Assembly (NCBI GenBank): GCA_030295235.1 | Contig: AP026130.1 | Span: 1-64,000, forward strand | Reading direction: 5' to 3' | Length of the DNA stretch: 64,000 nt | DNA from: Fistulifera solaris | Taxonomy: Eukaryota | Notes under the pieces: model-generated | Seen by the model: only the letters and a program-made list of their open reading frames with translations | Databases searched by the model: none | What the model was told of the DNA's origin: nothing | Position numbers and translations under genes: made by a program | Shown: positions 4,940 to 48,435 of the stretch, piece after piece | Position numbering within the stretch: the first letter of the stretch is position 1 | Layout of the letters: each line of letters starts with the position of its first letter

Positions 4940-6956
4940 TTAGAGAATTAGGTCTCCATGATCCGTTCCATTTGCTGCAGGATGTCGAGCCAATCGTTCC
5001 GGTACTTTGTTCCCGGTGCTCTCCAAATATGCTTTCAAAGCAGCCATGATACCCGCGTCCTCTTCTGTTATAAGAGAAGTAGCCAAACCTTCTTTGCCAG
5101 CTCGACCTGTACGACCGATGCGATGCGTATAGTTTTCAATGCTTCGTGAGGGCAAATCGTAATTAATGACATGGGCAACATCTGGTACATCTAAACCACG
5201 TCCGGCAACGTCGGTTGCGACCATGACTACGCCTCCACGACGGAATGTCGCAAGACTCTCTTCTCGCTGCTCTTGCGTTTTGCCACCGTGAAGCACAACC
5301 ACTTGTCGTCCCGCGCGCTCAACAATTCGTCCAACATGCTCAGCGTGTTTCTTTTCGTTCACGAATACAATAACCTTTTCATACAAAAAAGCGAGGATTG
5401 CTGATTTGTTGCATCAAAGCCTTTTCTTTTAATGCAGGTGAAGCTAACCAGACTAGCTCTTGCACAATTCGAGAGTTTTTACCGGATTTTTGATCTCCTA
5501 TGCTTACCACAGCCGGATAGCGTAAGTAAGTTTGGGCAATCTTTTCAACTTCAGGTGGCATCGTAGCACTGAACATGGCTGTTATACGATAGCGAGCTAC
5601 AGCGTTCTGATTCTGCAAATCTTCTTGTTCTTGTTGATAAGCTCTTAGTTCATCATCCGCCGACTTAAGCATTCCTCCCATCGAGTCTAATATAGACTGA
5701 ACCTGAGGTAAAAATCCCATGTCTACCATTCGATCTGCTTCATCGAGCACGACATAACAGCACTGATTGAGCACCAAATACGCCATCTCGATGCAATCGT
5801 TGATTCTCCCGGGAGTTCCGACAACGATGTGCACCCCTTTGCGAACTTGCTGAGCCTGTTGTTGAATTGCTTGTCCGCCTACAATGGGACAGGTAATGAG
5901 ATTGGGCGTAAGACTCAGAAGTTTTCGAAACTCCCCATCGATTTGCAAAGCCAACTCTCGCGTCGGCGCGAGAACCAATGCCAAAGGTCCTTCCTCCGCT
6001 ACTCGCTGCAGCACAGTACATGGCAGTTGCATCAAATAGTGACAAAGTGGAACACCAAAGGCAACTGTCTTTCCACTTCCCGTCTCCGCAATACCGATCA
6101 TATCCCTTCTTTGTAATCCCACCGGAATTGCCTGTCGTTGAATCGGAGAAGGTTCTTTAAACTTCATGACGTCGTAAAGCGCCTTGATAAGAAGCGGATG
6201 GATGGAAGGGAGCCCTGGTGAAGCCTCTTCGAAAGATCGTAGTGGCGGGGGTGCTTGTCCTCCTCGTACGTGTATTTCGTAATTTTCCCGCAGAATTCTC
6301 CAATCTCGATTGGTCATTTGTGACAAGGGTTTCTGCATGGCCGATTCTCGATTTGTTACTTCTTTTCCAGTAATTTAACTTTTTGCTCTGGAATGACGGT
6401 GGCTTTACAAAGAAGGGAGTAGCGTACAGAGGATCATCGGCCTCAAAGGTGTCGTCCGTATCATCCCATTGAAATTTGAACATAGTTCTCTTTTTCGTCC
6501 CCCGCTGTTGCTTCTGTTTCGCTTCCATTTCTTGATTGACTGAAACATCCTTGACACCTAAATACGTTTCATTTATCACTGCGCGTTGTTTTTGCGTCAA
6601 ATTACTGCCGGCTGTTGTGGTTTTAGAGAGTAGGCTACTTTCCGCTGGCTCGGACTGTTTCTGTTTCTTAACGAGCTCAGAAGTTTCATCTTTGATTGCT
6701 GTCTGCTGTTTACGCTCTCGCTTCGGTACGTAAACTACTCTTCCGCTATTAATTGTATTATTCGAATGAGGTTTCTGCAATGGCTTTTCGAACTGCTGTC
6801 GTTCTAATTCTTTTGACGCAAGGCACGTTCAATAGCTCTTTGTTCGGCTCGTTCTTCTGCGCGTTTCGCCGCTTCTGCTGCTGCCAGCGCTTCCTTTCGT
6901 TCGGATTCAGATAACCCTTCTAATAAGGCAGGATCTATTAATGTTTCGGGTTGCAT
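4940..6956 (-). CDS. PRP28: DEAD-box RNA helicase PRP28/DDX23 (split by homopolymer frameshifts near 6810, 6370-6385, 5385)
   Basis: FKFQWDDTDDT, MTNRDWRILRENY, AETGSGKT, PTRELA, TPGR, DEAD, SAT, HRIGRTGRAG motifs across ORFs 6804/6157/5379/4940. Confidence 0.9.
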
Positions 6957-7568: not shown

Positions 7569-10500
7569 ATGCATTCGAAACGACGAATCAAACTTCTATC
7601 GATTCTTCTTCTTTCGATCGCTTCTGTAAGCGGTTTTACTTTGTCGAACCGACGACAATGGAGAGCTCCGCTTCTCTTCTCTGCTTCTCCAAACTATGAT
7701 AATACCGCTTCAAGCGAACGTCCTCCGCAGGTAGCTTTATTACTGCATCAAAGAGTCGACCCGATGGCGGCTCTGGGTTTGCTTTCGTCGAAAGGATATC
7801 AAGTTACTGCGTTTTATATTCAGCAAGATGCAAACATGCTGGATCAAAATGAGCTAGTTAATTTAGAACGACTTTGTGCACGCTACGGGGCTCCAATGCA
7901 AGTCATGGAGGCACCTCCGGTCGCAGGACCGCCCTCGGAATTCGTTTTGAGTGATGCGCGAGACAAAATCAAGCTTTTCCAGCAGAACGGATATGACTTT
8001 GATTTTGTAGCTACATGGTATCAAGTGTCGGTGCAACTAGGAGAAAGAGGTGATGGAATACAGTTATTGCAGCCGTCGGATGCAACTAATGGCGGCTCTT
8101 TTTTACTGTGTGTGCTAAACCGAGATCAATTGGATACCTTGGTGCCCAAGCAGAATGCCGCGTCGGTTTCAAAGCAAGAGAAGAATATATTCGGACAAAT
8201 TGTGGACTTCTTTGTACCCAAGGAAAAGAACGAATATTCAAGCTACGAGAAAACGAGCGTAGAAAATCGAGCCGCTCAGCAGCAAGCGTCAAATAGGAAT
8301 GATTACGAGGAACAAAAGGATCGTATGTCAAAAGATGCGATCACCGAGACGAATCCGATCAATACTCCTCAATCACCTGTCGGAAGGCCCTTGCAACCAT
8401 CGCCGTCTCCGCAGCAAACAGCAAATGCGGTGGCAGCTCATCGCAGACCAGCACCGCAAACTTTTTCAAAAGGTGTTTCGCCCTCTCCACGGACACAGGC
8501 TCTCGATCCCATTGTTGGAACTTCACGAGCCGACCCTAGTACCCGGTCGTCTTGGCGTGCGAGTCAAGGACCACCATCGGCGCTTGGCCCAGATTTTACG
8601 GGTTCAAACACATATCCTGGTGCAGATTCTGCAAGACGAGCACGTCCTTTAGATCCGTGGCGCACTGAACGGACGAGCAACCAGATGTTGCAAAGCGATA
8701 ACATGCAAAGCAGACCTTCGAGCAGTTGGGGAGCACGTAATGGACAATCCGCAACCGACGGGACCATTTCACTACAAAATGTTTATGGCAATAGCGGGAA
8801 TAGTGCTGTGTCTTCGTGGACGACGCGAAGTGAAGATCGCGGACAGGGTTTTTACGCGGACAAGCGTGTGGACGATGGTGGAGCTTCAATAACAGAAACG
8901 ACGAAGCCTCGCGACAATATACCACTATCCCGGCAGTACTCTACACCAAAGAAACGACCCGAACCGTTGATGCCCATTGATGCTCCACGAAGTGACGCAA
9001 TGTCAGCATGGACTGGATCAACAGTATCAAGTAGAAGCACCTCTAACTACCCAGAGCGCCCTCTGTCTGGTTCTTCGTCATGGGGCACAGATGCCAGGTC
9101 TAACAAAGACATTCGACCAGATCCTTTACAGCCCACAGATCCTCGTTCTACTGAGGCAGTATCAACGTGGACTGGGTCAACGTATTCGTCGTCAAGCAGA
9201 ATCAGCAATCAACAAAATCCTCTTCAACCGATCGATCCCCCACCAAGCGATGCAACATCTGTTTGGACTGGATCCACTCCTGGAAGGAGCAACGAAAGGA
9301 ATACAAATGACGACTTTTCAAGAATGCCAGTCAGTACAGAACTTCGAACGCGGGGAAAGTCTGACTACGTGTCCGATGTTAGTAGCCCATCCCAGAGGTC
9401 AATTAATGCCGATGTCTGACTAAACAAACAAAGGTAGAAGACTTTTACCAAGACCGTAGACCTCCCCAACCAGATAGTCGACAAGCGGAAACCTTGGAAC
9501 AAGACGATAGATGGGGACGGTCGGAATCTAATAATTTTTATGATTCTAACAATGTGGACGAACAACCCAATTGGAATGCCCCGCAACCGCAAGAAAAGCT
9601 TTACCAGGATCGCATTAACGGATCAGGACAAGATGTTACTGCTAAAAAATGGGAACCATTGGAAACCGAAGCATTATATGAGGCAGTGCAAGACGCTTTT
9701 GCGTATTTCTCTCAACTTGCACCGGAACAAGTTCGTAGCGATTTGAAACAACGGGGTGAATGGTACGAACTAGAACAGTTTCCTCCAGAAATTCTTGTTA
9801 CACCAAAGACTCCCGTAGAAGATTGTTCTTCGCGCGTTTATATTCAAACAGGGTTTTTTCAAGAGAATGGCGACTGGATTATGTACGGGTTCCAAGGCGA
9901 GACGGAATCCTTGGTCCTTCGTGGTTTGATTCAAATTCTTTCCGATATTACACAGGAAGTTTCTATTGACGCAGTGCTAGCTTTACCTCCCAACGAAATC
10001 GTAAAAGTCTTGGGTTTAGAACCAGCGTTACGGCAAAAAGAAAAGAGAGACATGATTGCAATCTGGAGCTCCCTGCAACAGCAAATTCAAGAAACACTCT
10101 TTGGATATACAAAAAATAAAAACGATTCGGAATACCAGCCGTCGATTATGAGAACCTCAATTCCGGGGGCCGAAAGCGCTAGGTCTGAAGCTCAGAAAGG
10201 ATGGGGTACAGAGTCGAGCACGAGCAATGATAAGAAGCAACAGAATACATCGGGATCATCTCCTCCTTTTGCTATCTGGGATTCGACCAGTTCAACAACT
10301 CCTTCGTCTTCGCCCTCGGATAGACTTTCCCGTCTTGACCGATTGTCGTCAACTTCCACCCCTAATTTTGCAGACGGTGCTCAAGTTGATGCTTCGGCAA
10401 ACAAAGCTCCATGGGATAACTGGACACCGCCGCCTACGCAGGACAAACAGTCAACATCACCGAATACTCCGTCTACAATGGGGACATCGATTCCAGGGGC

Positions 10501-11801
10501 AGGAAGTGGGAAGAAGGAGACCAAGAAAGGCTGGGGTCCGGGTTCCAGCACTAACAGCGATAAGAAACAATCGGATAGATCGGGCTCGACCCCGCCGTTT
10601 GCAATTTGGGATCCGACAAGTGCATCCGTTCAATCGTCTCCGTCGCCTAGTCCACCATCTTCTTCGTCCTCGGATAGACTTTCGCGTCTCGACAGATTGT
10701 CATCGCCGTCTACCCCTAAATTCGCTGACGGTGCTCAAGTTGATCCATCAGCAAACAAAGCTCCATGGGATAACTGGACACCGCCTTCTAAGCCAAATGG
10801 TCAATCGACATCGGGATCGTCCAGCTCAACAAGAAGTTCAATGTCTGGATCTAGAAATGCCGATTCCCAGATGCCGAAAAGTCAAAATGAATCGTACCGC
10901 GAGCGCAGCGCAACCTCTGACCAACAAAACGGTTGGAAAGGTCCAACCGATTTCGACCCGAATAGTCCCTCTGTGGCTACTTCAATTCCAGGAGCTGGCC
11001 AAGCAAAGCCAGAGGTAAAATCCGGTTGGAAGCCGAGTCGAGGACGATCTGAATCTGATGACAATAAAAGCGGTTCCAATAAAAGTGAGAACCAGCCTCC
11101 TTGGAACACATGGACACCGCCTGCGCAAGCGCCAGAAAAGACACAGCGTGACCAAAATCAACGAGCGCAACAGCAAAGCGGTTGGAGAGGCGACACAGAC
11201 TTCGATCCGTCGCAGCCATCTGTAGGAGCGTCAATTCCGGGAGCCGGTCAAGCGAAGCCGGAAGTAAAGTCCGGTTGGCAGCCAAGTCGCGGGAGATCTT
11301 CGTCCAGTAACAATAGCAACAATAATGACTTTGACAACAGTCAGACACAGCCTCCGTGGAATACATGGACACCACAAGCGCAAGGGCAACAAGATCCAAA
11401 AGGCGGCCAATATCGAAGAGCGCAACAGCAGAGTGATTGGACAGGCGATACCGACTTTGATCCATCACAACCATCAGTTGCTGCATCAATTCCGGGAGCC
11501 GGCCAAGCGATACCAGAGGTAAAATCCGGTTGGAAGCCGAGTCGAGGACGTTCCGAATCTGATGACAACAAAAGTGGCTCCAATAACAATGACAACCAGC
11601 CTCCCTGGAATACATGGTCTCCTCCATCAACACAGAACAGTGCGGGCGACGCTGGTACACTTGAAAACGACCCGGAAATGTACGGTATAGAGATTGATGA
11701 CTTTGACCCAACTTTGCCTTCAACTGGTAGTTCTATCCCAGGGAGCAGGAGGGAGCAAACCCACTGTGAAGAAGGGTTGGTCTCCCGGTGGACGTAAATA
11801 A
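7569..11801 (+). CDS. Large plastid-targeted protein: degenerate MnmA-like domain + SufE-like domain + Trp-motif repeat disordered regions (paralog A)
   Basis: Signal peptide ..VSG|F; MnmA-like at ~7725-8150; SufE-like (VEDCSSRV, LRGLIQIL) at ~9665-10095; ORFs 7569 and 9494 joined by a frameshift or an intron (e.g. 9330-9433); removing one G at ~11742 restores a C-terminus KKGWSPGGRK*. Confidence 0.7.
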
Positions 11802-11857: not shown

Positions 11858-14494
11858 TTAGTTCTGAGTAACATGCCGCATTTTCGGACTAAAATCTGGG
11901 TTCTTTAATCGAACGCTTCCAAAGATACGCTCCGGTAATGTTGATTCGTCATTACCCTCAAAGAGAAACCCCATGTCTACCACAAGCGTCTTCGCATATC
12001 CGAGAGCTAGTCGTACGACTCCCGTTGCAACCGGGTTACTCGCACAGTCTATGATGACCTCGAAAAACCGGTCACTTTGGACGTATAACTGGCGTAGCTT
12101 CTTCCCTAACACTGCAGGTGTTGAACCAACCGCTTTGCGCACTAAGAAATTACCCTGCACTATTTGCGGTACCAATTTGAAAGTTCGGTTGCGAAACTCG
12201 TCCGATGTGCCAAAAAAGAATTCGTTGCATAATTTGGACGAAGGCGTCCCATCTTCCCCGTTTATCAATCTCATGTCGTCGATTGCGTAGTAAAATACGC
12301 CGTGGTAATAAGGGGGTCCAGGAATGACAATGTTCACCACGAAAACAAACGGTGGCATATCACTCTTATGACCTTTTGATTTTACTTCTGCTTCCATGGC
12401 AAGCGCCAATTGCACACGTTCGCGTGGGTGGACACAAAAACCACTGTAAAGCGGTTGATCGACAGAAACTAGATCGACAGCAATCAAGCGACCAATGCTG
12501 GGGCCAGCATTAATTTTCTGGCCGTCGTCTTTATAATGTTTTCCACGCACGCGGAAAGAATTGGAATCGGGCTCAGCCCAACTATCCCTGGTCAGTGGCA
12601 TCGGCGTGCTTGCCAATCCAGCAAATTTCGATGCTGACGGATATTCATGAGTTGAAAAAGTGAAATCATAGTTCTGCAAGTCATCGTGAGCTTCATCTCC
12701 TTCATCGAGATCATCCGACCGTGCTTGGGCAATACCATGTTGAGAAGAAGGATGAAAACTAAGCATCGCAGCTGGCTCATCTCTGGCACAAGGTACAAAT
12801 CGGTCCGTGTCAATTGCATCACGGATATTTACAAGCTGCGACAGCACGGCGACCCCAAACGCTTCCGCATAACTTTGCCATGATAACATGGGGAGTGGTG
12901 TAGTCGGAACCCAGCCACGGGGGTCGACTTGAACAAAAGCTGTCACAAGGCATTCGTTCGGTCTTGGAACACTGCGACGGCTGGTAGAGGTTCTTTTGTG
13001 TGGTGCGATGGTAAAAACTTTGTGCATTTCCGCTCGCACAAAGAAGTCCTCGGGAGGACAATCAGAATGTTCGACAGACTCGTAACAAACAACGTAGCTT
13101 CCATCTTCCTCAAGCCGCCAGTATCGATAAAGGCAAAAGTCGCGCGGTGCAGTCCAAGACGGAAATAAGAATAGAGGCGAAAGTACCATATGGATAATGT
13201 CTGTGTTGTCGTCGACAGCTTCAACAATACGAAAAGTCAGCAAATACTCAGACTGGTTTTCAAGCAGCTGCTTGTGATCAAACGAAGCGACACAGCCTAC
13301 AGACATGAGGCACAGAAATGCGTCGACAGCTGACGTGCTTAAAACCTCATGGGATTTTATAGGTGCGCACGCTTTCCCATCTAACGAGATCGAACTCCGA
13401 AAGCAAGAACGAAACTTCTGTTCAACTTCAATGCGCTCTTCACGATATATTCGTAGAGCGGAAATGCCCGAGAATGTAGATGACCAGCCGCCGTGTAAAA
13501 GGCGCCACGCGTATTGATTTTGTTGTGACCAAGCCTGGTCTCTCCTAGACGGTGGTTTGGCTGTTTGCAACAAAGCATTTCTAGCCTTTCGACCGTCCGT
13601 TGCAAACAACTGTCCCCAAGTCGACTGCTGAACACAAAGAGACTCTTGAGATGCGATAATGCACTTCCTCCAAGTATTGGCCATCTCGTATTCCGAACTA
13701 GCAATCATAATTTCTTTTTTCTTTTCACCAGTCACGCTTTCTCCTAGTCCAACTGCAGCGCTCCCTCCACCAGCCGCAGCAGCTCCCACAAAAACTAATC
13801 CTGCCACTAAACCGAGACCAGCTGTAGCCACAGCTATAGCAGCAGTTCCGCCCGCGGCAGCTGCGATTTTCGTCCCTTGCCAGATTCGCTTACGGCTTCT
13901 CCGGATTCTCATCTTCTTATTTGTACGATAATCACGCAATAGTTCCTCCTCTTGTGCCTGTTGCTGAGGATCGATTCCTGTGGGGCCCTCCACACGGAAA
14001 CTGCGTTGTGATTTCGACCTATTGTGACCATCTTGGACGAACAGTTCGTTATCAAGCTTCGCTGATCTTCTACGACGGTTTCTGGGAGATTTGGGGGAAA
14101 GGTCGAAACTTCCTTCAAAGCTGGGAGTGAGCTCTAACTCGACAGAAGAGTCATCTCCACCATCATCTTCGACTTCAAATGATGTAATGCGTAAGCAGTA
14201 AATGAGATCCTTGTGCTTGCTTACAAAAGTTCCGAGACTTCGCAGTTCGATAGATCGATTATTCCTTTTAGTTTTCCATTTGTAATCGAATAGTATCGAA
14301 GCGAGTTGTCCGAATGCAAAACGAAACGTCGAGGAATGTATGGCTCAAGCCAGTTTCTACTTTTCTTGAGCATCTCTCCTGCGAAATTCGCATTGCAGTG
14401 TCAATAGGAATCCTTCATCAGCGCCGTCGCAATCATGGCAGTCCAGCTTACCTTCCAAAACAATATCGTCTTCTACATCGAGTAGCTCCGCCAT
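11858..14494 (-). CDS. EDR2-like PH-START-EDR2_C (DUF1336) lipid-binding protein (intron 14379-14451; frameshift ~14225)
   Basis: N-terminal LEGEMLKK..RRFVL..LRYY..LKGIIDL PH pattern; PRDFCLYRYWR..DGSY and QVDPRGW START motifs; FRVRGKHY, FKLVPQIV, ELPE-like LPERIFG C-terminal domain. Confidence 0.85.
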
Positions 14495-14809: not shown

Positions 14810-17800
14810 TTAATTTCTTGGCGGCATCATGTCTCTTGGTCGCATGCGGTCGTCGTAAGGTCCATTATTAGGTCCCCTGCCTGGTCCAGGGGCGCGCCAT
14901 TCGTTATCGTCTCTGTAACGAAATCTCTCATCCTCGGGACGCCGTGGCCCCTCACGGCGATAATCATAATACTCTGACGGACCAGGTGGTGGTATTCGAC
15001 CTCCACGTTGTTGCCATCTGTCATTGTTCACTCTTCCATCCTCGTAGGGGGGAATAGGGCGGTCCCTCGTTATTGTACGGACGAGTTGGAATTATTCTAT
15101 CAACATACGGCTTTTGATCAGGTCGTCGAGGGGGACTCCTGTAACCTTCGGATCGCGACCTCGAAGAGTTTTCGTTGAAAGGTGATCGGCGTGTTTCGTA
15201 CCCTGGTTCGTTCGGGTCTCGAGCTCCCTGCCCTGCGCCGCCGAACGGCGGTCGACGTGATTCGTAACGTGGCTCGTTCAAGTCTCGAGCCCCCTGAGGT
15301 GTATTGCGAAAAGGAGGTCGTGGTCCATCCTCGGTTAAAGGAACTCGACGTGTTTCGTACCCCGGTTCATTCAAGTCTCGGGTTCCTTTTTCAGCACCAC
15401 GATATGGTGTTTTCGGCGTCGAAGTTCCTCGCGGCTCACTATTAAAACGGTCGGTTTCCTTTCCAGGTGCTGCCCGAGTTGTCGTCTTGGATGCCGGCCC
15501 TGAAGAACTTCCGTTAAAAGGTGGTCCTGAAAAATCCTTGTCTCCCTTTACTGGGTGATTGCGATTCTATAGTTGCTCTTTCGTAATTTCCCGTTACAAT
15601 ATCGAGGTACGTTCGGGGTCGAGAGGGACGATTCTTCTTTTGGAAGTTTGTCGAAGAAGCTTTATCATCAATACTTTCATCCGCCAGGGGATCAATTTTA
15701 GACTTCGCTTGCTTGAATTGCGATGACCGCCCAACATCTCGATCAGCGAACGGACCAGAAGCAGCACCACGACTTTCCGAAGCTGGCCCAGCTCGTGATC
15801 TTCTTTCGTTTCCTGTGTCTTTTAAAATTTCTGCATCAAATGACGTGTTTGCTTGGGTGAATTCCTTCGCTGTATACCCTTCTGGGCGTCCCCGAAAGGG
15901 CTCGCGTTCTCTAAAACCACTTTGTGGTCCGTCTCTTTGATCCACTGATCTGTAGCCTGATCCTCTGACAGATTGACCTCGAGGCTTGCGATTAACTTCT
16001 GTAGTAAAATCGCCTAATTTCGTTGGGAACGCGGAAGGCTCCCAGCTTGCACGGCCATTTTGGGGTCCCCAAGGAGTTTTGTCTTGGAAAGGTCCCACTG
16101 GAGACCCTCTAGATGGTGTCGAACCCGTCCATGAAGACATAGTGCCGCTAGCTGGAGAGAAATTTTGAGGTTGTAGAGTGACTCGCTCAGCGCCTGCTGT
16201 TGATGGCGTTGAACCAGTCCAAGGTGTTGATGAAAAAGTGTTTTGCGGTCCGACTCCAGCAGGGGAGAATGGGTTATTCACAGAAGAAACACCAGGTGTC
16301 TGTAAATTTTTAGGGGTAAAAGGAAACGGATCTATGCCATCGGAAGCTTTCCAAACACTGGACGTGCCGGGACTATTTGGATACAATGGATCGAGCCTTG
16401 CGCCACCAGCCGATGAGCCGGACGGCGTTCGCCACGGAGTACTCGGAACGGAGCGCGACGAGTCAGCAGGATTCTTTATTTTATAGCGATCTGACTCAAC
16501 AAAGTCCGGTCCGAGAGTCGAGCTTTTACTTGTGTCATTTTTGGGAATACTATCATACACCCTCCTCGAATTTCGGACGAAGTTCCCCGCTGATCCGGAG
16601 CTGGACGCTTTGAACGATGAAGAGATTACTTCTTGGGGCTGCAAAATATCCTTTTTCGCGGGAGATTCATTCCACCGCTGATCCGGTGCTTTACCAGAAA
16701 GTGGATTCAAAGAAGTTTGTGGGGATCGTGACGACCCGTTTTCCCAGGGCGGGCGTTCCGAGCTAGTAAGCGGCTTGAAATCACTTGTCGTTGGATCAGA
16801 TTTCCATGACGACTTGGGAGCAGTTTCAATCCCGAAAGCGGGACCGAGTGGTGGTTCGGTATCGGAGGAACCGACAGACTTGCCAGTAGTACTTGCAGCA
16901 TTTCGACGAGTGCTCTTGGCAAAAGAAGGTGTACTGGCAGCAGCGTCGAATTGTGCACCGTCAAGATTATTCGCAGTTGATGACGACAGTCGGTCAACAC
17001 GTAAGGGCCTCTCTGAGGACGACGAAGTCCCATTCGATCGGTCGTCACTCCTAGTGAAAGTGGATTGGGTACTGTCAGTCTTCTGCGGGGGAGGAGTCCA
17101 GTTGTCCCACGGTGCCTTATTTGCCGAAGCATCCACTTCTGCACCGTCCGCAAATTTAGGCGTAGACGCTGACGACAGTCGGTCGAGACGAGAAAGCCTA
17201 TCCGAGGGCGAAGTAGATGGCGGACTAGACGACGGAGACGATTGAACAGATGCACTCGTCGGATCCCAAATCGCAAACGGTGGAGCAGATTCCGATGTAC
17301 TCGATTGTTTATTTTCATTGTAAGAGCTGGTGCCCGAACCGGGCCCCCATCCTTTTTCACCGCAGGCTTTGCATTCCCGGCACCAGGAATTGAAGTGCCC
17401 ATTGTCGATGGCGCATCAGAGGAAGACGATTGAGTATTTTGCGGAGGTGGCGGTGTCCAATTATCCCAGGGAGCCTTATTTGCCGATGTATCCACTTCGG
17501 CACCGTCCGCAAATTTCGGCGTTGATGGCGAAGAAAGACGGTCGAGACGCGAAAGTCTATCCGAGGGCGAGGCGGACGGCGGACTAGTCGACGGAGACGA
17601 CTGAACTGATGCACTCGTAGGATCCCAAATCGCAAACGGCGGAGCTGAACCTGATGCATTCGACTGTTTATTGTCACTGGCAGTGCTCGACCCAGGACCC
17701 CACCCTTTCTTTGTGGCGGGCTTTGAGCTTCCTGCTCCCGGAATCGAAGTGCCCAAGGTAGAAGAACTATCAGACGATGTCGTCTGCGAGTTTTGCGGCG

Positions 17801-18704
17801 GCGGAGGTACCCAGTTATCCCATGGAGCTTTGTTTGCTGATGCATCTACTTCGGCACCATCAGCAAATTTAGGGTTGGACGGTGATGATAATCGGTCAAG
17901 ACGAGAAAGTCTATCCGAGGGCGAAGAAGATGGCGGACTAGACGACGGACTAGACGACGGAGATGCTTGCGCTGATGCACTTGTAGGATCCCAGATGGCA
18001 AACGGCGGAGCTGATCCCGACGTACTCGATTGGCTGTTACTACTGCTACCTGGACTCCATCCTTTCTTCACAGCCGGTTTTGAGCTTCCTGCCCCAGGAA
18101 TTGACGTCCCCATAGTCGAAGGCTCATAATCAGAGTCTTCATCGTTTCCATAAAGTGTCTCTTTGATTTGCTGCTGCAGCGCACTCCAAACAGAGCCCAT
18201 GTCGTTGCTGTCACTCTGACTCAAAGTAGATTGTAATCCTAACGCGTTTCCGATTTGGTAAGCTGGCAACGACATCACTTCATCAATAGGGACATCTTGC
18301 GTGATATCAGATAGAATTTGAATCAAACCACGAAGAACAGTGGCGTCAGTATCGCCCTGGAACCTAAAGATGATCCATTCTCCATTCTCTTGATAAAGAC
18401 CCGTTTGAATAGATACTTGCGAGGAACAACCCTTTACGGACGCTTGCGGTGTAACCAAGACTTCTGAAGGAAACTGTGCGAGCTCATACCATTCGCCTCG
18501 TTGCTTTAAATCGCTACGCACTTCTTCCGGTGGCAGTTGAGAGAAATATGCAAAAGCGTCCTGCACTGCATCTTGTAGTGCTTCGGCTTTCAAAGGCTGC
18601 CACTTTGCGAGAGAAATTAATGCATTATTACTCTTGATTATAAACGCACTCGAGAAACTGTGCGTTGCTGCTAAAAACAGCACGCAAAGCGGCGACGTCC
18701 TCAT
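14810..18704 (-). CDS. Large plastid-targeted protein: SufE-like domain + Trp-motif repeats + R/P/Y/G-rich tail (paralog B; frameshifts ~17355, ~15555, ~15050)
   Basis: Signal ..SSA|FII; SufE-like VKGCSSQV..DTDATVLRGLIQIL..LGLQSTLS at ~18587-18155; ORFs 16707, 15514, 15021 and 14810 chain through single-base homopolymer changes. Confidence 0.7.
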
Positions 18705-44864: not shown

Positions 44865-45776
44865 CTACGATAAGTCCTTTCGCAGATACAACAGCGCAAC
44901 GCCATCCACAAAATAGATACTATCTTTCCAGGCCATACCACCATCAAATGTAAAGGGAGTGTCTTCTTTGGGGACGATGCGATAGCCCATGGACTGATAT
45001 AAACGTTGCGCTACCGAATATTGCGCATCGCAATGCAAGTGAAGGCTGGTGCAACCCGTTCGCTGCGCGGCGATTCCTTCGGTCGCGGAAACTAATACCT
45101 TGGCCAGGCCGCGACGTCGGAAGGAGGGTTCGATTAGCAGGTTACCGATCCACGCTTCCATAGGTGTCCCAGTAACCTGACAATACATCCTTTTGAGTGG
45201 TAACGGAATCGGGACGGCAGGAGGAATGCGGTCGGGTAGCACTGGCTGCCAACTCACTTCAATCATTCCTATGACACGCGGTGTTGATTGTTGACACGTG
45301 TGCTGAGTCGCCACAAGTATCGTATGATCTTTTTCAAGTACGGACGAGTCGAGAACTAATTTCATACGCATCGTACTGTCAATCAACCGTTGCAACCACC
45401 ATTGATCGAGCTGATCGGCAAAATTGGTCCGATTCTTCTTTCCGTATTCTTCCATACAAAGGTCAACAATATCATTCAAGTCTTGAATATCCATTTTCTT
45501 TAAAGTGATTGTCGAGTCGTTACTGGCGTTGATGACAAACGGAAGCTGTAAACTAGAAGACGTCAATTGCTTTATTCGCTCCGGTGTAGCGTAGCTGTTC
45601 GATATTCTTTGACGCTGTTCTTCTCGTGCTCGAAAGAAAAGGCAGCGTTGCGTCGTTTCCTTCCGCTTTTCTCGATTGAAAGAAACAAAAGAGGAGGGTT
45701 GTTGCGGTAGCAGAAAAGCATCATGAAGAATGCACTGACTCAAGAGAACGAACAGTATTCTCAGAAGAGGAGTCAT
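44865..45776 (-). CDS. GNAT-family acetyltransferase, plastid-type presequence (paralog 1)
   Basis: Signal ..HDA|F; IGNLLIEPSFRRRGLAKVL acetyl-CoA motif A; AQRLYQSMGY. Confidence 0.85.
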   Translation of the reverse strand: MTPLLRILFVLLSQCILHDAFLLPQQPSSFVSFNREKRKETTQRCLFFRAREEQRQRISNSYATPERIKQLTSSSLQLPFVINASNDSTITLKKMDIQDLNDIVDLCMEEYGKKNRTNFADQLDQWWLQRLIDSTMRMKLVLDSSVLEKDHTILVATQHTCQQSTPRVIGMIEVSWQPVLPDRIPPAVPIPLPLKRMYCQVTGTPMEAWIGNLLIEPSFRRRGLAKVLVSATEGIAAQRTGCTSLHLHCDAQYSVAQRLYQSMGYRIVPKEDTPFTFDGGMAWKDSIYFVDGVALLYLRKDLS

Positions 45777-46199
45777 GATTGTTTTATTTTTTGTTTCTTC
45801 CTTCGCGGGGGCCGACAGGTGGATTTCAGTACAGCGACCACGAATAGTACCGTTGATAATTATCGATGAATCGATTGGGAATGTTATAAGCAATAAGCAA
45901 CAACGAAAGAGGATTTTGACGGTTGTGTATTACTGAGTAATTGCATCGATCGCACGCGTTTCCATACAACGCGCATAAGAAACAATGCGAGCTACAGTGT
46001 GTCCCGTAACAAGAATTAATGGCTATGTTTCAAAAAGTAGACTACTGACTGCAAGATTGCAAATTAGTTAGTCACGAGTTGTGACTTTCCCGACTCAAAC
46101 TTTAGGGCGAATAGGAAATACCTAGTTTACAAACGGTGATAGAAATAGATTTCGTAATTTGTTTTTGCAGTGCATTGCTGCATTTAGCACGCTCTACAA

Positions 46200-46720
46200 A
46201 AAGAAGCCGTTCGAGGGAGTACTTTGCTGAGCGCAACTTGTGCCAGTGAGTTTTAAGTGCCCCAGTCGCGACATCCTTCCACGCGCAAAGATGTTGATCG
46301 AAAGTCGGCGCATTAAAGAACATGTAAGTCATGGAATTGGCTGAAGCCGTGTCCCAATCAGCAATGTCTTGGTTGAAGGCCAAGGCGTTCGTAAACATGG
46401 CCGACATGCTGGTAACCTTTTCCGTATCCCAATCGCTTATATCCTGATTGACCAAAAACATGGTTTCCATAGTGGTGACTGCATTTGTGTTCCAATCACC
46501 AATGTCTTGTTTGAAGGCCGAAGCTTCGGAAATCATGCTACGCATGTTGGTGAACTTTCCCGTATCCCATCCGCCAATGTCTTGATTAAATGCTACCGCA
46601 CCATCGAACATCCCAGCCATATCCGTGACTTTTGGCGGTGTTCCATTTACTGATATCTTGGTCAAAAGCGGCTGCGTCGTGAAACATCGAAGCCATCGTC
46701 AGCACGGACGACGTATCAAC
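46200..46720 (-). pseudogene. DUF285/BspA-like (PARCEL) 25-aa repeat fragment
   Basis: Repeats WDTxKVTxMxxMFxxAxxFNQDIxx; frameshift ~46640, truncated unit, no proper N-terminus. Confidence 0.7.
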
Positions 46721-46855
46721 TGAAAAGCGTGGCTCTTGATTCCGAATCTTCTCTGCTTTAGAAACAAAAAGACTTCCTGGAGCTGACTTCTGTCGTAATG
46801 ACTTCACGGAAGACAGTGTTGACCAAAAGTATATCGGTGCTTCTGGTATGATTAT

Positions 46856-47797
46856 TTAATACTTCGACTCAATAGTCCCACGCCACGAAAAGTCTTTTCG
46901 TAAATGCAAAAGCGCAATTCCGTCAATAAAGTAAATACAATCTTCCCAGGCAATATCGCCATCAAATGTAAGCGGAGTGTTTTCTTTGGAAACAATGCGA
47001 AATTCCATGGATTGATACAACCGTTTCGCTGCCGGATACAGAAAATCGCAATGCAAGTGAAGGCTGGTGCAACCAGTACGCTGTGTGGCTATACCTTCTG
47101 TGGCGGCAACTAATAATTTAGCCAAACCGCGACGTCGAAAGGAGGGCTCGATCCACAGATTGCTGACCCATACTTCCATGGGTGTTCCAGTAAACTGACA
47201 ATAGATCCTTTTCAGCAATAACGGGATCGGCACAGCGGAAGGAAGGCGGTGGGGCAGCACTGGTTGCCAACTCAATTCAATCCTTCCAATGACACGCGAA
47301 GTTGATTGTTGAAAAGTGTGCTGAGTTACCACAAAAACGGTGTAATCTTTTTCGAGTGGAGAAGCGTCAAGCGCTAACTTCATGCGCATCGTGCTTTTTA
47401 AGACTAATTGCCACCACCATTGATAGAGATGTTCGGCCAACTTTGTACCATCTTTCATTCCGTAGTCTCTCATACGTAGGTCAACGATAGCATTCAAGTC
47501 TTGAGGCTCCATTTTCCGTACAGTTATTGTCGAGTTGTCATTGGCGTCGATGACGAATGGAAGCTGCAATTGAGAAGATGCCAATTGCTGAATTCGCTCC
47601 GGTGTGGCGTAGCTGTTCGATATTTGTTGTCGCTGTTCTTCTCTCGCTCGAAAGAAAAGTGAGCATTGTGTTTTTGCGGTTAGATTTCCGTGAAAAACAG
47701 ATTGATAAGAGAATTCGCGTGGCACTTGGAAAGCGTCGTGACGAATGCACTGAACCAACAAAATAAACAAAATATTCCGAAGAGGAGGAGGAGTCAT
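46856..47797 (-). CDS. GNAT-family acetyltransferase (paralog 2)
   Basis: Closely similar to 44865-45776; VSNLWIEPSFRRRGLAKLL. Confidence 0.85.
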   Translation of the reverse strand: MTPPPLRNILFILLVQCIRHDAFQVPREFSYQSVFHGNLTAKTQCSLFFRAREEQRQQISNSYATPERIQQLASSQLQLPFVIDANDNSTITVRKMEPQDLNAIVDLRMRDYGMKDGTKLAEHLYQWWWQLVLKSTMRMKLALDASPLEKDYTVFVVTQHTFQQSTSRVIGRIELSWQPVLPHRLPSAVPIPLLLKRIYCQFTGTPMEVWVSNLWIEPSFRRRGLAKLLVAATEGIATQRTGCTSLHLHCDFLYPAAKRLYQSMEFRIVSKENTPLTFDGDIAWEDCIYFIDGIALLHLRKDFSWRGTIESKY

Positions 47798-48435
47798 GTT
47801 CTTCTTGTTTCTCGCGAAGCCGACCAGTTGCTCTTTAGAAGTAGAGCGTGAGATAGCCTTATCGATTATCAAATGGGTCAATTGATTGATTGCTATTGTT
47901 ATTGCAATCCAATCTAAATAAGGTCGCAGCACCGCCTCAAATATGAATACGCATGAAAACCGTAGCTGTTTCGTTGCAGTGGTTGACTGCAGCCTCTCTA
48001 AAAAGTGAGCAGAATTCGAGTCATGAATTGCGCTCAAAGCGCGATGCTCACACAATTTCACCCTGCCTGGTACCGACCCCGACTTTTCAGCGGATGATGT
48101 ACAAAACGGACCTCTATTAGTCTAATGAGCTTGCGAGAATCATTCACGATAAAACTTAGCTTCACGGATCAATAAAATAACAAAAGAAAGAATGAGCGAC
48201 TTCAAAAGCAAGGCTCGTTTAGCAAGACACTGCTGACCGTACCGGGTATTGGTGTATCGTGAGACTGTCGGCCGGATTAGGGACACCTGCGTGCCAAGAC
48301 ATCGACCAAGACGATTTTTGAAAGTAAGCTGTGAGCTGTAAATGCCGCAGAAGCTAATTGCATACTTATAAAGACTAATGATACCTCGAAGGGAGCATGA
48401 ATGTGTTTTCTGCTTTGAAAACACGACACCTTGGA

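What the first reader, a model, noticed from the sequence alone, without database searches (positions are those of the whole stretch)
7725..8150. Catalytically dead MnmA (tRNA 2-thiouridylase)-like domain in the same polypeptide as SufE
Seen: QVALLLHQRVDPMAALGLL..GYQVTAFYI, PSEFVLSDARDKIKLF, FDFVATWYQVSV and LLQPSDATNGGSFLLCVLNRDQL..LVP. By eye these line up in order with MnmA N-domain motifs (VAVLLSGGVDSSVAL, PNPDVLCNxxIKF, DYVATGHYA, D..KDQSYFL..L.Q.QL..L.FP). The SGGxDS PP-loop and the catalytic Cys are replaced. Known: MnmA gets sulfur from cysteine desulfurase systems. Inference: the gene descends from a SufE-MnmA sulfur-relay fusion that lost catalysis and was repurposed as a pseudoenzyme.
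Basis: partly seen in the sequence, partly recalled or inferred. Interest (0 to 1): 0.75.

Follow-up and report, generated by a model that had tools for sequence, protein, structure and literature searches.

The report
Dead tRNA-enzyme domain on diatom scaffold
A diatom duplicated its chloroplast enzyme for putting sulfur on tRNA, reversed the order of the two halves, lost the catalytic parts of one half, and keeps both halves in a large floppy repeat protein whose job, perhaps organising something in the chloroplast, is untested.

Summary
Confirmed. Window 7725-8147 is a degenerate MnmA catalytic domain: profile-profile match to bacterial MnmA 93.6%, E 2e-7 over 138 columns; nearest relative is the genome's own intact SufE-MnmA fusion (29%, E 1e-14). 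It cannot thiolate tRNA: PP-loop, DxxC, ATGHY and KDQ motifs are replaced, and 222 C-terminal residues with the second cysteine and the tRNA-binding domains are absent. The window's stop before SufE is an assembly error: homoeolog, database proteins and two runs give one ORF of about 1,415 aa. Its SufE-like domain groups with the fusion's SufE (99/99), but domain order is reversed, and the protein is a plastid-addressed, mostly low-complexity repeat protein with a sister gene nearby. The dead domain is under purifying selection (dN/dS 0.19), though not significantly more than the linker. No named relative outside Fistulifera solaris. Best reading: a lineage-restricted pseudoenzyme module on a plastid scaffold; repeats loosely resemble the Rubisco linker PYCO1 (unproven).

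The parts
7569..11801 (+). Gene A, one intronless ORF of about 1,415 aa once two one-base assembly errors are allowed for (FisN_3Hh623; homoeolog FisN_3Lh623 on G000:C12)
7569..7724 (+). Hydrophobic signal peptide ending at SG/F followed by a basic, acid-poor transit-like stretch (bipartite plastid address; judged by eye, no predictor run). Missing from both NCBI gene models
   Evidence: the Phe-after-cleavage rule for diatom plastid proteins is recalled
7725..8147 (+). Degenerate, truncated MnmA HUP domain (aa 53-193)
7746..7763 (+). Remnant of the PP-loop: SGGVDS of the intact paralogue reads HQRVDP; only V and D kept
7938..7955 (+). Remnant of the DxxC catalytic motif: Asp to Phe, Cys to Ser
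8013..8102 (+). Remnants of ATGHY (now ATWYQ) and KDQSYF (now NGGSFL)
8148..9649 (+). About 500-aa low-complexity linker with short Trp motifs (WTGS four times in the homoeolog list as three exact copies plus variants)
9414..9419 (+). Assembly error: one base missing after 9414 and a wrong base at 9417 create a false stop
9650..10108 (+). SufE-like domain of the fusion type; keeps the conserved Cys (codon 9824-9826), loses the PGRNxG/PGRND motif near its end
10109..11801 (+). Repeat region, six units each with SIPG followed 15 residues later by a GW motif (SIPG at 10157, 10487, 10982, 11231, 11486, 11732); protein ends in GWSPGGRK
11741..11741 (+). Assembly error: one extra G in a G run shifts the last 19 codons
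14810..18704 (-). Gene B (FisN_3Hh619, 1297 aa): plastid-type leader, SufE-like domain 66% identical to gene A's, three of the same repeats, long low-complexity tail, no MnmA trace; three frame breaks in the window against the database protein

Best explanation
Origin (shown, short of a starred tree for the MnmA half): the plastid SufE-MnmA gene was duplicated in the Fistulifera lineage. The copy acquired repeats behind SufE and was duplicated again, giving gene B (SufE-repeats-tail) and gene A, in which the N-terminal lobe of MnmA now stands in front of SufE. The parent gene stays intact and does the tRNA thiolation. Chemistry (follows from sequence plus the known mechanism): the MnmA remnant cannot bind ATP through a PP-loop, adenylate U34, carry sulfur or grip tRNA. 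Function (inferred): gene A is imported into the plastid and works as a multivalent scaffold. Its Trp-containing repeats act as stickers, and the two borrowed folds serve as globular docking or spacing modules. The dead domain is a fold kept for a protein-binding or structural job, acidic (pI 4.4) and so unlikely to bind RNA. The SufE-like domain keeps its cysteine and may still be loaded with sulfur by SufS, but has lost a motif that all ten active-type SufE sequences from diatoms here keep. The partner most worth testing is Rubisco.
For: Homology and loss: (26 of 63 near-invariant MnmA positions kept; those lost include the PP-loop, DxxC, GHY and KDQ residues, those kept are mostly hydrophobic or Gly/Pro). 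Needed residues per PMC7025502 and PMC10219651 passages. One ORF. Parent intact. Trees. Selection between homoeologs: dead domain dN/dS 0.19 (10 non-synonymous, 15 synonymous changes in 141 codons, p 8e-5 against neutrality), SufE-like 0.12, repeats 0.27. Single-sequence model gives alternating strands and helices in the HUP order. Further sequence types 12% and 20% divergent cover the domain in two environmental runs. Composition and repeats.
Against: No experiment ties the protein to any place or partner. dN/dS of the dead domain is not significantly below that of the low-complexity linker (0.19 against 0.43, Fisher p 0.17), so it may be carried along by selection on the whole protein. Structure models are weak (pLDDT 48 and 62) and fold searches single out nothing. 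The MnmA tree has a very long branch; grouping with the mitochondrial-type copy is not rejected (p 0.098). Gene B lacks the domain altogether. Plastid targeting was judged by eye. Expression is not shown.
Confidence: 0.55

Rival explanations
1. Specific form of the best reading: genes A and B are the Fistulifera counterparts of the pyrenoid Rubisco linker PYCO1. The GW[S/G/K]P motifs bind the small subunits round Rubisco's central channel, and the folded remnants are cargo or anchors in the pyrenoid.
For: PYCO1 repeats hold S[M/L]PG, then KWSP[R/Q]GG 20 residues on, and GTGYNP (PMC10288592 passages and Table S1); A and B repeats hold SIPG, then GW[S/G/K/Q]P 15 residues on, and FDP or WDP, at 83-120 residue spacing. 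F. solaris has no GTGYNP-coding match and no clustered KWSP[R/Q] array. Its RbcS keeps N105, N133 and G137, the PYCO1 contact residues.
Against: The likeness is by eye, post hoc, in Ser/Pro/Gly-rich sequence; only 2 of the 9 A and B repeats of the window-type proteins read WSP, and none has the full KWSP[R/Q]GGS sticker. RbcS contact residues are probably common to diatoms. Earlier unchecked notes list at least four other linker-like candidates in this genome. No SufE hit in the PYCO1 paper's supplements or main texts of two diatom pyrenoid proteomics preprints.
Confidence: 0.2
2. Passenger: only SufE plus repeats matter (as in gene B); the MnmA remnant is a decaying left-over that happens to carry the targeting peptide and is kept merely soluble and in frame.
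For: Gene B lacks it; branch length about 10 changes per column; 37 of 63 near-invariant positions lost with two internal deletions; constraint not separable from the linker's.
Against: No indels between homoeologs in the domain, dN/dS 0.19; losses fall on catalytic motifs while core strand and helix residues stay; the domain is still present in sequence types 12% and 20% divergent.
Confidence: 0.2
3. Sulfur-traffic regulator: the SufE-like domain takes sulfur from SufS and the dead MnmA lobe docks on SufS or on the intact MnmA, steering sulfur between Fe-S assembly and tRNA thiolation.
For: Cys kept in all three A and B SufE-like domains aligned, dN/dS 0.08-0.12; in Plasmodium one SufS feeds both pathways and MnmA has a SufE-like N-terminus (PMC10219651 passages).
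Against: The PGR-N motif of the fusion and stand-alone diatom SufE rows is gone; the genome has three stand-alone SufE loci per subgenome and the intact fusion; about 1,070 residues of linker and repeats stay unexplained.
Confidence: 0.15
4. Two separate genes or a pseudogene, as the window's frames read literally.
For: Stop at 9417-9419 and change of frame.
Against: Homoeolog is one 1452-codon frame; three database proteins read through; in runs X1 and X2 all depth at 9414 carries the missing base.
Confidence: 0.02
5. Chance likeness of an unrelated alpha/beta domain to MnmA.
For: Fold searches do not single out MnmA; best phmmer hit in the PDB is an unrelated hydrolase at E 0.001.
Against: Colinear match over 138 columns, E 1e-14 to the paralogue, 0 of 1000 shuffles near the score, and the second domain traces to the same parent gene.
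Confidence: 0.01

Closest known systems
Plastid SufE-MnmA fusion (intact paralogue at G000:C28/C29; Plasmodium falciparum apicoplast MnmA with SufE-like N-terminus, PMC10219651)
   Same: Both folded domains descend from it; plastid-type leader; SufE cysteine kept.
   Different: Order reversed (MnmA remnant first); MnmA catalytic motifs replaced; 222 C-terminal residues gone; about 1,070 residues of linker and repeats added; found only in F. solaris and unnamed near relatives.
MnmA/TRMU tRNA 2-thiouridylase, D-type (PF03054, NF001138)
   Same: HUP-domain sequence colinear over about 140 residues.
   Different: No SGGxDS, no DxxC, no second Cys, no central or C-terminal tRNA-binding domains.
SufE/CsdE sulfur acceptors (PF02657)
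   Same: Over the Pfam cut-off (43.5 against 27 bits); conserved Cys aligns with CsdE.
   Different: Far below NCBIfam equivalog cut-offs (15.5 against 160); C-terminal Arg motif lost; embedded in a repeat protein.
PYCO1, Rubisco linker of Phaeodactylum tricornutum (PMC10288592)
   Same: Plastid-type leader, six tandem low-complexity repeats, S[I/M]PG followed by a Trp sticker-like motif, basic repeat region (pI 9.2).
   Different: No exact sticker, no GTGYNP, shorter motif spacing, more than twice as long, two folded domains; homology not testable here.

Membership tests
MnmA tRNA 2-thiouridylase | HUP catalytic domain homology (PF03054) | tested here: met
MnmA tRNA 2-thiouridylase | PP-loop SGGxDS | tested here: not met
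   reads HQRVDP in both homoeologs
MnmA tRNA 2-thiouridylase | DxxC (or CxxC) motif plus second Cys in the flexible loop | tested here: not met
   D348 to F, C351 to S; segment with C452 absent (definition from PMC7025502)
MnmA tRNA 2-thiouridylase | Central and C-terminal tRNA-recognition domains | tested here: not met
   no PF20258/PF20259 hit in the full-length protein; homology ends at the LFP motif
MnmA tratement fold (HUP superfamily) | Three-dimensional HUP fold | tested here: inconclusive
   low-confidence models; MnmA 2der Z 4.2 (rmsd 4.5, 105 aligned, rank 10) and Z 5.4 (rmsd 3.5, 106 aligned, rank 4, model built with MnmA rows), tied with unrelated folds
SufE-MnmA fusion lineage | SufE half groups with fusion SufE rather than stand-alone SufE | tested here: met
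   99/99 starred; grouping with stand-alone SufE rejected p 0.042; without outgroup not rejected, p 0.30; long-branch warning applies
SufE-MnmA fusion lineage | MnmA half groups with fusion MnmA | tested here: inconclusive
   92/86 unstarred; alternative with mitochondrial-type exon p 0.098; pairwise scores favour the fusion
SufE-MnmA fusion lineage | Order SufE then full MnmA | tested here: not met
   order reversed and MnmA truncated
SufE sulfur acceptor | PF02657 domain with conserved Cys | tested here: met
SufE sulfur acceptor | Conserved C-terminal PxRxNG-type motif (role of its Arg recalled, from no call) | tested here: not met
   replaced in A and B, present in 4 fusion and 6 stand-alone rows
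SufE sulfur acceptor | Persulfide transfer from SufS | not testable with these tools
   needs biochemistry
PYCO1-type Rubisco linker | Disordered tandem-repeat protein with plastid leader | tested here: met
   composition and repeats, leader by eye; no disorder or targeting predictor run
PYCO1-type Rubisco linker | KWSP[R/Q]GGS and GTGYNP stickers | tested here: not met
   only related motifs
PYCO1-type Rubisco linker | Pyrenoid location, Rubisco binding, phase separation | not testable with these tools

The most novel reading that the evidence does not exclude
A diatom built a pyrenoid scaffold out of a duplicated tRNA-thiolation enzyme: PYCO1-like Rubisco stickers grafted onto a permuted SufE-MnmA, with the dead MnmA lobe as an anchor and a cysteine-bearing SufE domain carried into the Rubisco condensate, linking sulfur or redox traffic to CO2 fixation.
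Probability: 0.15. Interest if true: 0.8.

Novelty: new variant of a known kind. Interest (0 to 1): 0.48.

Why it matters
It is a clean, recent case of pseudoenzyme birth with the parent gene still beside it for comparison: duplication, change of domain order, loss of every catalytic motif, continued selection. I found no description of a catalytically dead MnmA paralogue in the searches made (mostly listings seen). Public gene models hide it: both NCBI models start inside the domain and lose the targeting peptide, and Pfam calls only SufE. If the repeats prove to bind Rubisco, it would show where fast-evolving diatom linkers come from, an open question since PYCO1 is reported as not widely conserved. 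Against that, it is confined to one small lineage and no function is shown.

Tried and rejected
Relatives of the dead domain: word-index search of proteins of 294-2000 aa gave 2 hits among 501 candidates, both F. solaris; phmmer over 1.84 billion representatives gave 1, the homoeolog; metagenome contigs 0 of 243 pattern matches; ESM Atlas no usable hit. SufE-plus-repeat region: 3 hits among 8000 scored candidates, all genes A and B; metagenome contigs 1 of 78, a chance match on inspection. These blanks do not prove absence. Fold searches with both models gave no match at E 0.001 and no Z of 8 or more. The phmmer hit to NtdB was rejected as local and non-colinear with motifs. An intron as explanation of the frame break was dropped: runs X1 and X2 show a one-base insertion and no joint there. 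No run on record as RNA was listed, so expression is untested; X2-X5 are only guessed to be RNA. A circular-permutation history (gene A linker homologous to gene B tail) got weak support only: 21 of 500 local shuffles reached the score. No MnmA trace in gene B. A pattern for KWSP alone was too loose (740 matches against 491 in the control). The search for PYCO family papers returned unrelated chemistry papers. A bacterial SufE scan by the diatom stand-alone SufE found none of 217; outgroups came from 4 of 5 genomes. The first SufE tree lacked the stand-alone rows through a script slip (redone). Prediction of RbcS with the last repeat was not available, so there is no verdict on binding. Trees used 20 and 12 of the 80 bacterial MnmA rows, picked at random, and only the first exon of the mitochondrial-type MnmA.

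Full report
1. What is in the sequence. The stretch 7725-8147 lies in an ORF that opens at ATG 7569. The host is a diatom: the nearest named proteins are FisN_3Hh623 and FisN_3Lh623 of Fistulifera solaris, and the genes examined occur in homoeologous pairs.

2. The MnmA likeness is real. Pfam PF03054 matches at E 4.2e-4, 20.5 bits against a cut-off of 20.6; the homoeolog passes the cut-off with 23.1 bits. Profile-profile comparison of the two homoeologs with 15 bacterial MnmA sequences gives 93.6%, E 2e-7, over 138 of 143 columns; an unrelated control gives 0.1%. An HMM from 80 bacterial MnmA scores the domain 19.2 bits and one from 5 fusion proteins 44.0 bits; the best of 1000 shuffles reach 3.5 and 4.5. 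Structure adds little: a single-sequence model has pLDDT 48 with strands and helices alternating as in a HUP domain, a model helped by MnmA rows pLDDT 62, and four fold searches list MnmA or other HUP proteins only among tied weak rows.

3. It is dead as an enzyme. MnmA needs the SGGxDS PP-loop, Asp99, Cys102 and Cys199, and central and C-terminal domains for tRNA (PMC7025502, passages; PMC10219651, passages). Of 63 positions conserved in at least 95% of 85 intact sequences, 26 are kept and 37 lost. SGGVDSS reads HQRVDPM, the DxxC Asp and Cys are Phe and Ser, ATGHY reads ATWYQ, KDQSYF reads NGGSFL, and two internal segments are deleted. Homology stops at the LFP motif; 222 residues of the parent, with the second catalytic Cys, are absent. 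The PP-loop Asp itself is kept. The domain is acidic (pI 4.4).

4. One polypeptide with SufE. In the window the first ORF stops at 9417-9419 and the SufE match (9788-10081, E 3e-11) is in another frame. The homoeolog on G000:C12 is a single 1452-codon frame holding both and differs from the window by one missing base after 9414 and one extra base near 11740. Three database proteins of the window's type read through, one of them with the full N-terminus (P0013, 1413 aa). In 2 of the 4 runs laid (X1, X2) all depth at 9414 carries the missing base, and the extra base at 11741 is left out in all of X2's depth and 23.4 of 42 of X1's; the other two runs give no row at these places. So both breaks are assembly errors. 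Both NCBI models start inside the dead domain and lack the leader.

5. Where it came from. The genome holds an intact plastid-type SufE-MnmA fusion on C28 and C29, a second MnmA without SufE on C15 and C16, and six stand-alone SufE matches. The dead domain is closest to the fusion (E 1e-14, 29%; 57-59 bits for the three closest fusion rows, 49-54 for two others, at most 39.7 for 69 bacterial rows that aligned of 80, no hit to the first exon of the other MnmA). In trees it joins the fusions at 92/86 on a very long branch, and the alternative is not rejected (p 0.098). The SufE-like domain joins the fusions' SufE at 99/99 and a grouping with stand-alone SufE is rejected at p 0.042 (without bacterial outgroup p 0.30). 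The intact fusion is not new: a SufE-like N-terminal domain is described for Plasmodium and other apicomplexan MnmA (PMC10219651), and earlier notes of this scan record it in this genome and a red alga. What differs here is the reversed order: leader, dead MnmA lobe, 500-aa linker, SufE-like domain, 570 aa of repeats. Gene B, on the other strand at 18704-14810 with one unrelated gene between, has leader, SufE-like domain (66% identical), three of the same repeats and a long tail, but no MnmA trace. A tandem duplication followed by trimming would explain the order; support is weak (21 of 500 shuffles).

6. Selection and spread. Between homoeologs the dead domain has 10 non-synonymous and 15 synonymous changes in 141 codons (dN/dS 0.19, p 8e-5), against 0.12 for the SufE-like domain, 0.43 and 0.30 for the two linker parts, 0.27 for the repeats and 0.06 for the intact HUP domain. 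The contrasts with linker (p 0.17) and intact domain (p 0.10) are not significant. No protein relative outside F. solaris was found. Two environmental runs hold further types: 117 differences in 957 bases over 7781-8737 in X1 where the homoeolog has 78, and 44 in 221 over 7944-8164 in X6 (one contig, depth 2.5) where the homoeolog has 11. I could not translate these. The domain thus looks confined to a small clade.

7. How it most likely works. Shown: no thiouridylase chemistry; parent intact; continued selection. Inferred: import into the plastid (hydrophobic leader ending SG/F; rule recalled), and a scaffold role. About three quarters of the chain is rich in Ser, Pro, Gly, Thr, Asn and Gln (52-61%) with regularly spaced Trp motifs. 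The repeat unit occurs only in genes A and B (16 of 16 matches; 11 of 26 pattern matches, the rest scattered). I take the dead domain to be a folded docking or spacing module (overall confidence 0.55). PYCO1 repeats carry S[M/L]PG, then KWSP[R/Q]GG, and GTGYNP (PMC10288592, passages and Table S1); the repeats here carry SIPG, a GW[S/G/K/Q]P motif 15 residues on, and FDP or WDP. F. solaris lacks exact PYCO1 sticker arrays and its RbcS keeps the three contact residues. But the likeness is by eye in low-complexity sequence, the exact sticker is absent, and unchecked notes name several other candidates in this genome, so I give this 0.2. The SufE-like domain keeps its Cys but has lost the C-terminal motif kept in all 10 fusion and stand-alone diatom rows, so sulfur transfer is open.

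8. Literature seen. PMC10219651: passages. PMC7025502: passages. PMC10288592: passages, supplement list, two supplement searches and part 5 of 6 of supplement 1. PMC13655443: passages. bioRxiv 10.1101/2023.10.26.564148 and 10.1101/2023.10.25.564039: passages; their supplementary protein lists were closed and may bear on the pyrenoid question. All other papers: search listings only. None of these listings or passages describes a dead MnmA paralogue or this gene; the library lacks most subscription papers.

9. Verdict. Observation confirmed; interpretation supported with corrections. It is not a member of MnmA (three defining features fail) but a new, lineage-restricted derivative of the known SufE-MnmA fusion. 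Interest 0.48; the bold reading (a Rubisco-organising scaffold built from a tRNA-thiolation enzyme) has probability about 0.15 and would merit 0.8.

Noticed in passing
window 14810-18704 (-): Gene B, sister of gene A without the MnmA remnant; C-terminal tail has Arg/Pro/Tyr-rich repeats (EPGYETRR-type). Three frame breaks in the window against NCBI GAX20532.
   Followed up: partly
window 4940-6828 (-): DEAD-box helicase gene is broken into three frames in the window but is one 629-codon frame on G000:C12: this assembly has frequent one-base errors, so apparent pseudogenes here need checking.
   Followed up: partly
L007 (G000:C28:150244-150510): A further MnmA-like fragment with four stops, about 62 kb from the intact fusion (E 2e-6); possibly another decayed copy.
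   Followed up: no
L008-L013 (G000:C34 580-588 kb, C35 600-608 kb): Three stand-alone SufE genes in tandem per subgenome; one carries a C-terminal extension that looks like BolA (recalled, not tested), two are shortened.
   Followed up: partly
window 11858-14344 (-): START plus EDR2_C domain gene lies between genes A and B.
   Followed up: no
G000:C60:97003 and 210866 (L106, L107): Plastid contig holds two rbcS copies in opposite orientation; may be an over-assembled circle.
   Followed up: no
window 7781-8737 and 9248-9733, run X1: The wetland run holds one type nearly identical to the window and a second type more divergent than the C12 homoeolog (117 against 78 and 76 against 38 differences): a second strain or a hybrid with another partner genome.
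   Followed up: no
L108-L111: Diatom-like rbcS (82-88% identical) lies in contigs binned as bacterial MAGs; probably plastid contamination of those bins.
   Followed up: no
window 44865-48121 (-): Two tandem acetyltransferase-like paralogues with plastid-type leaders (family judged by eye).
   Followed up: no
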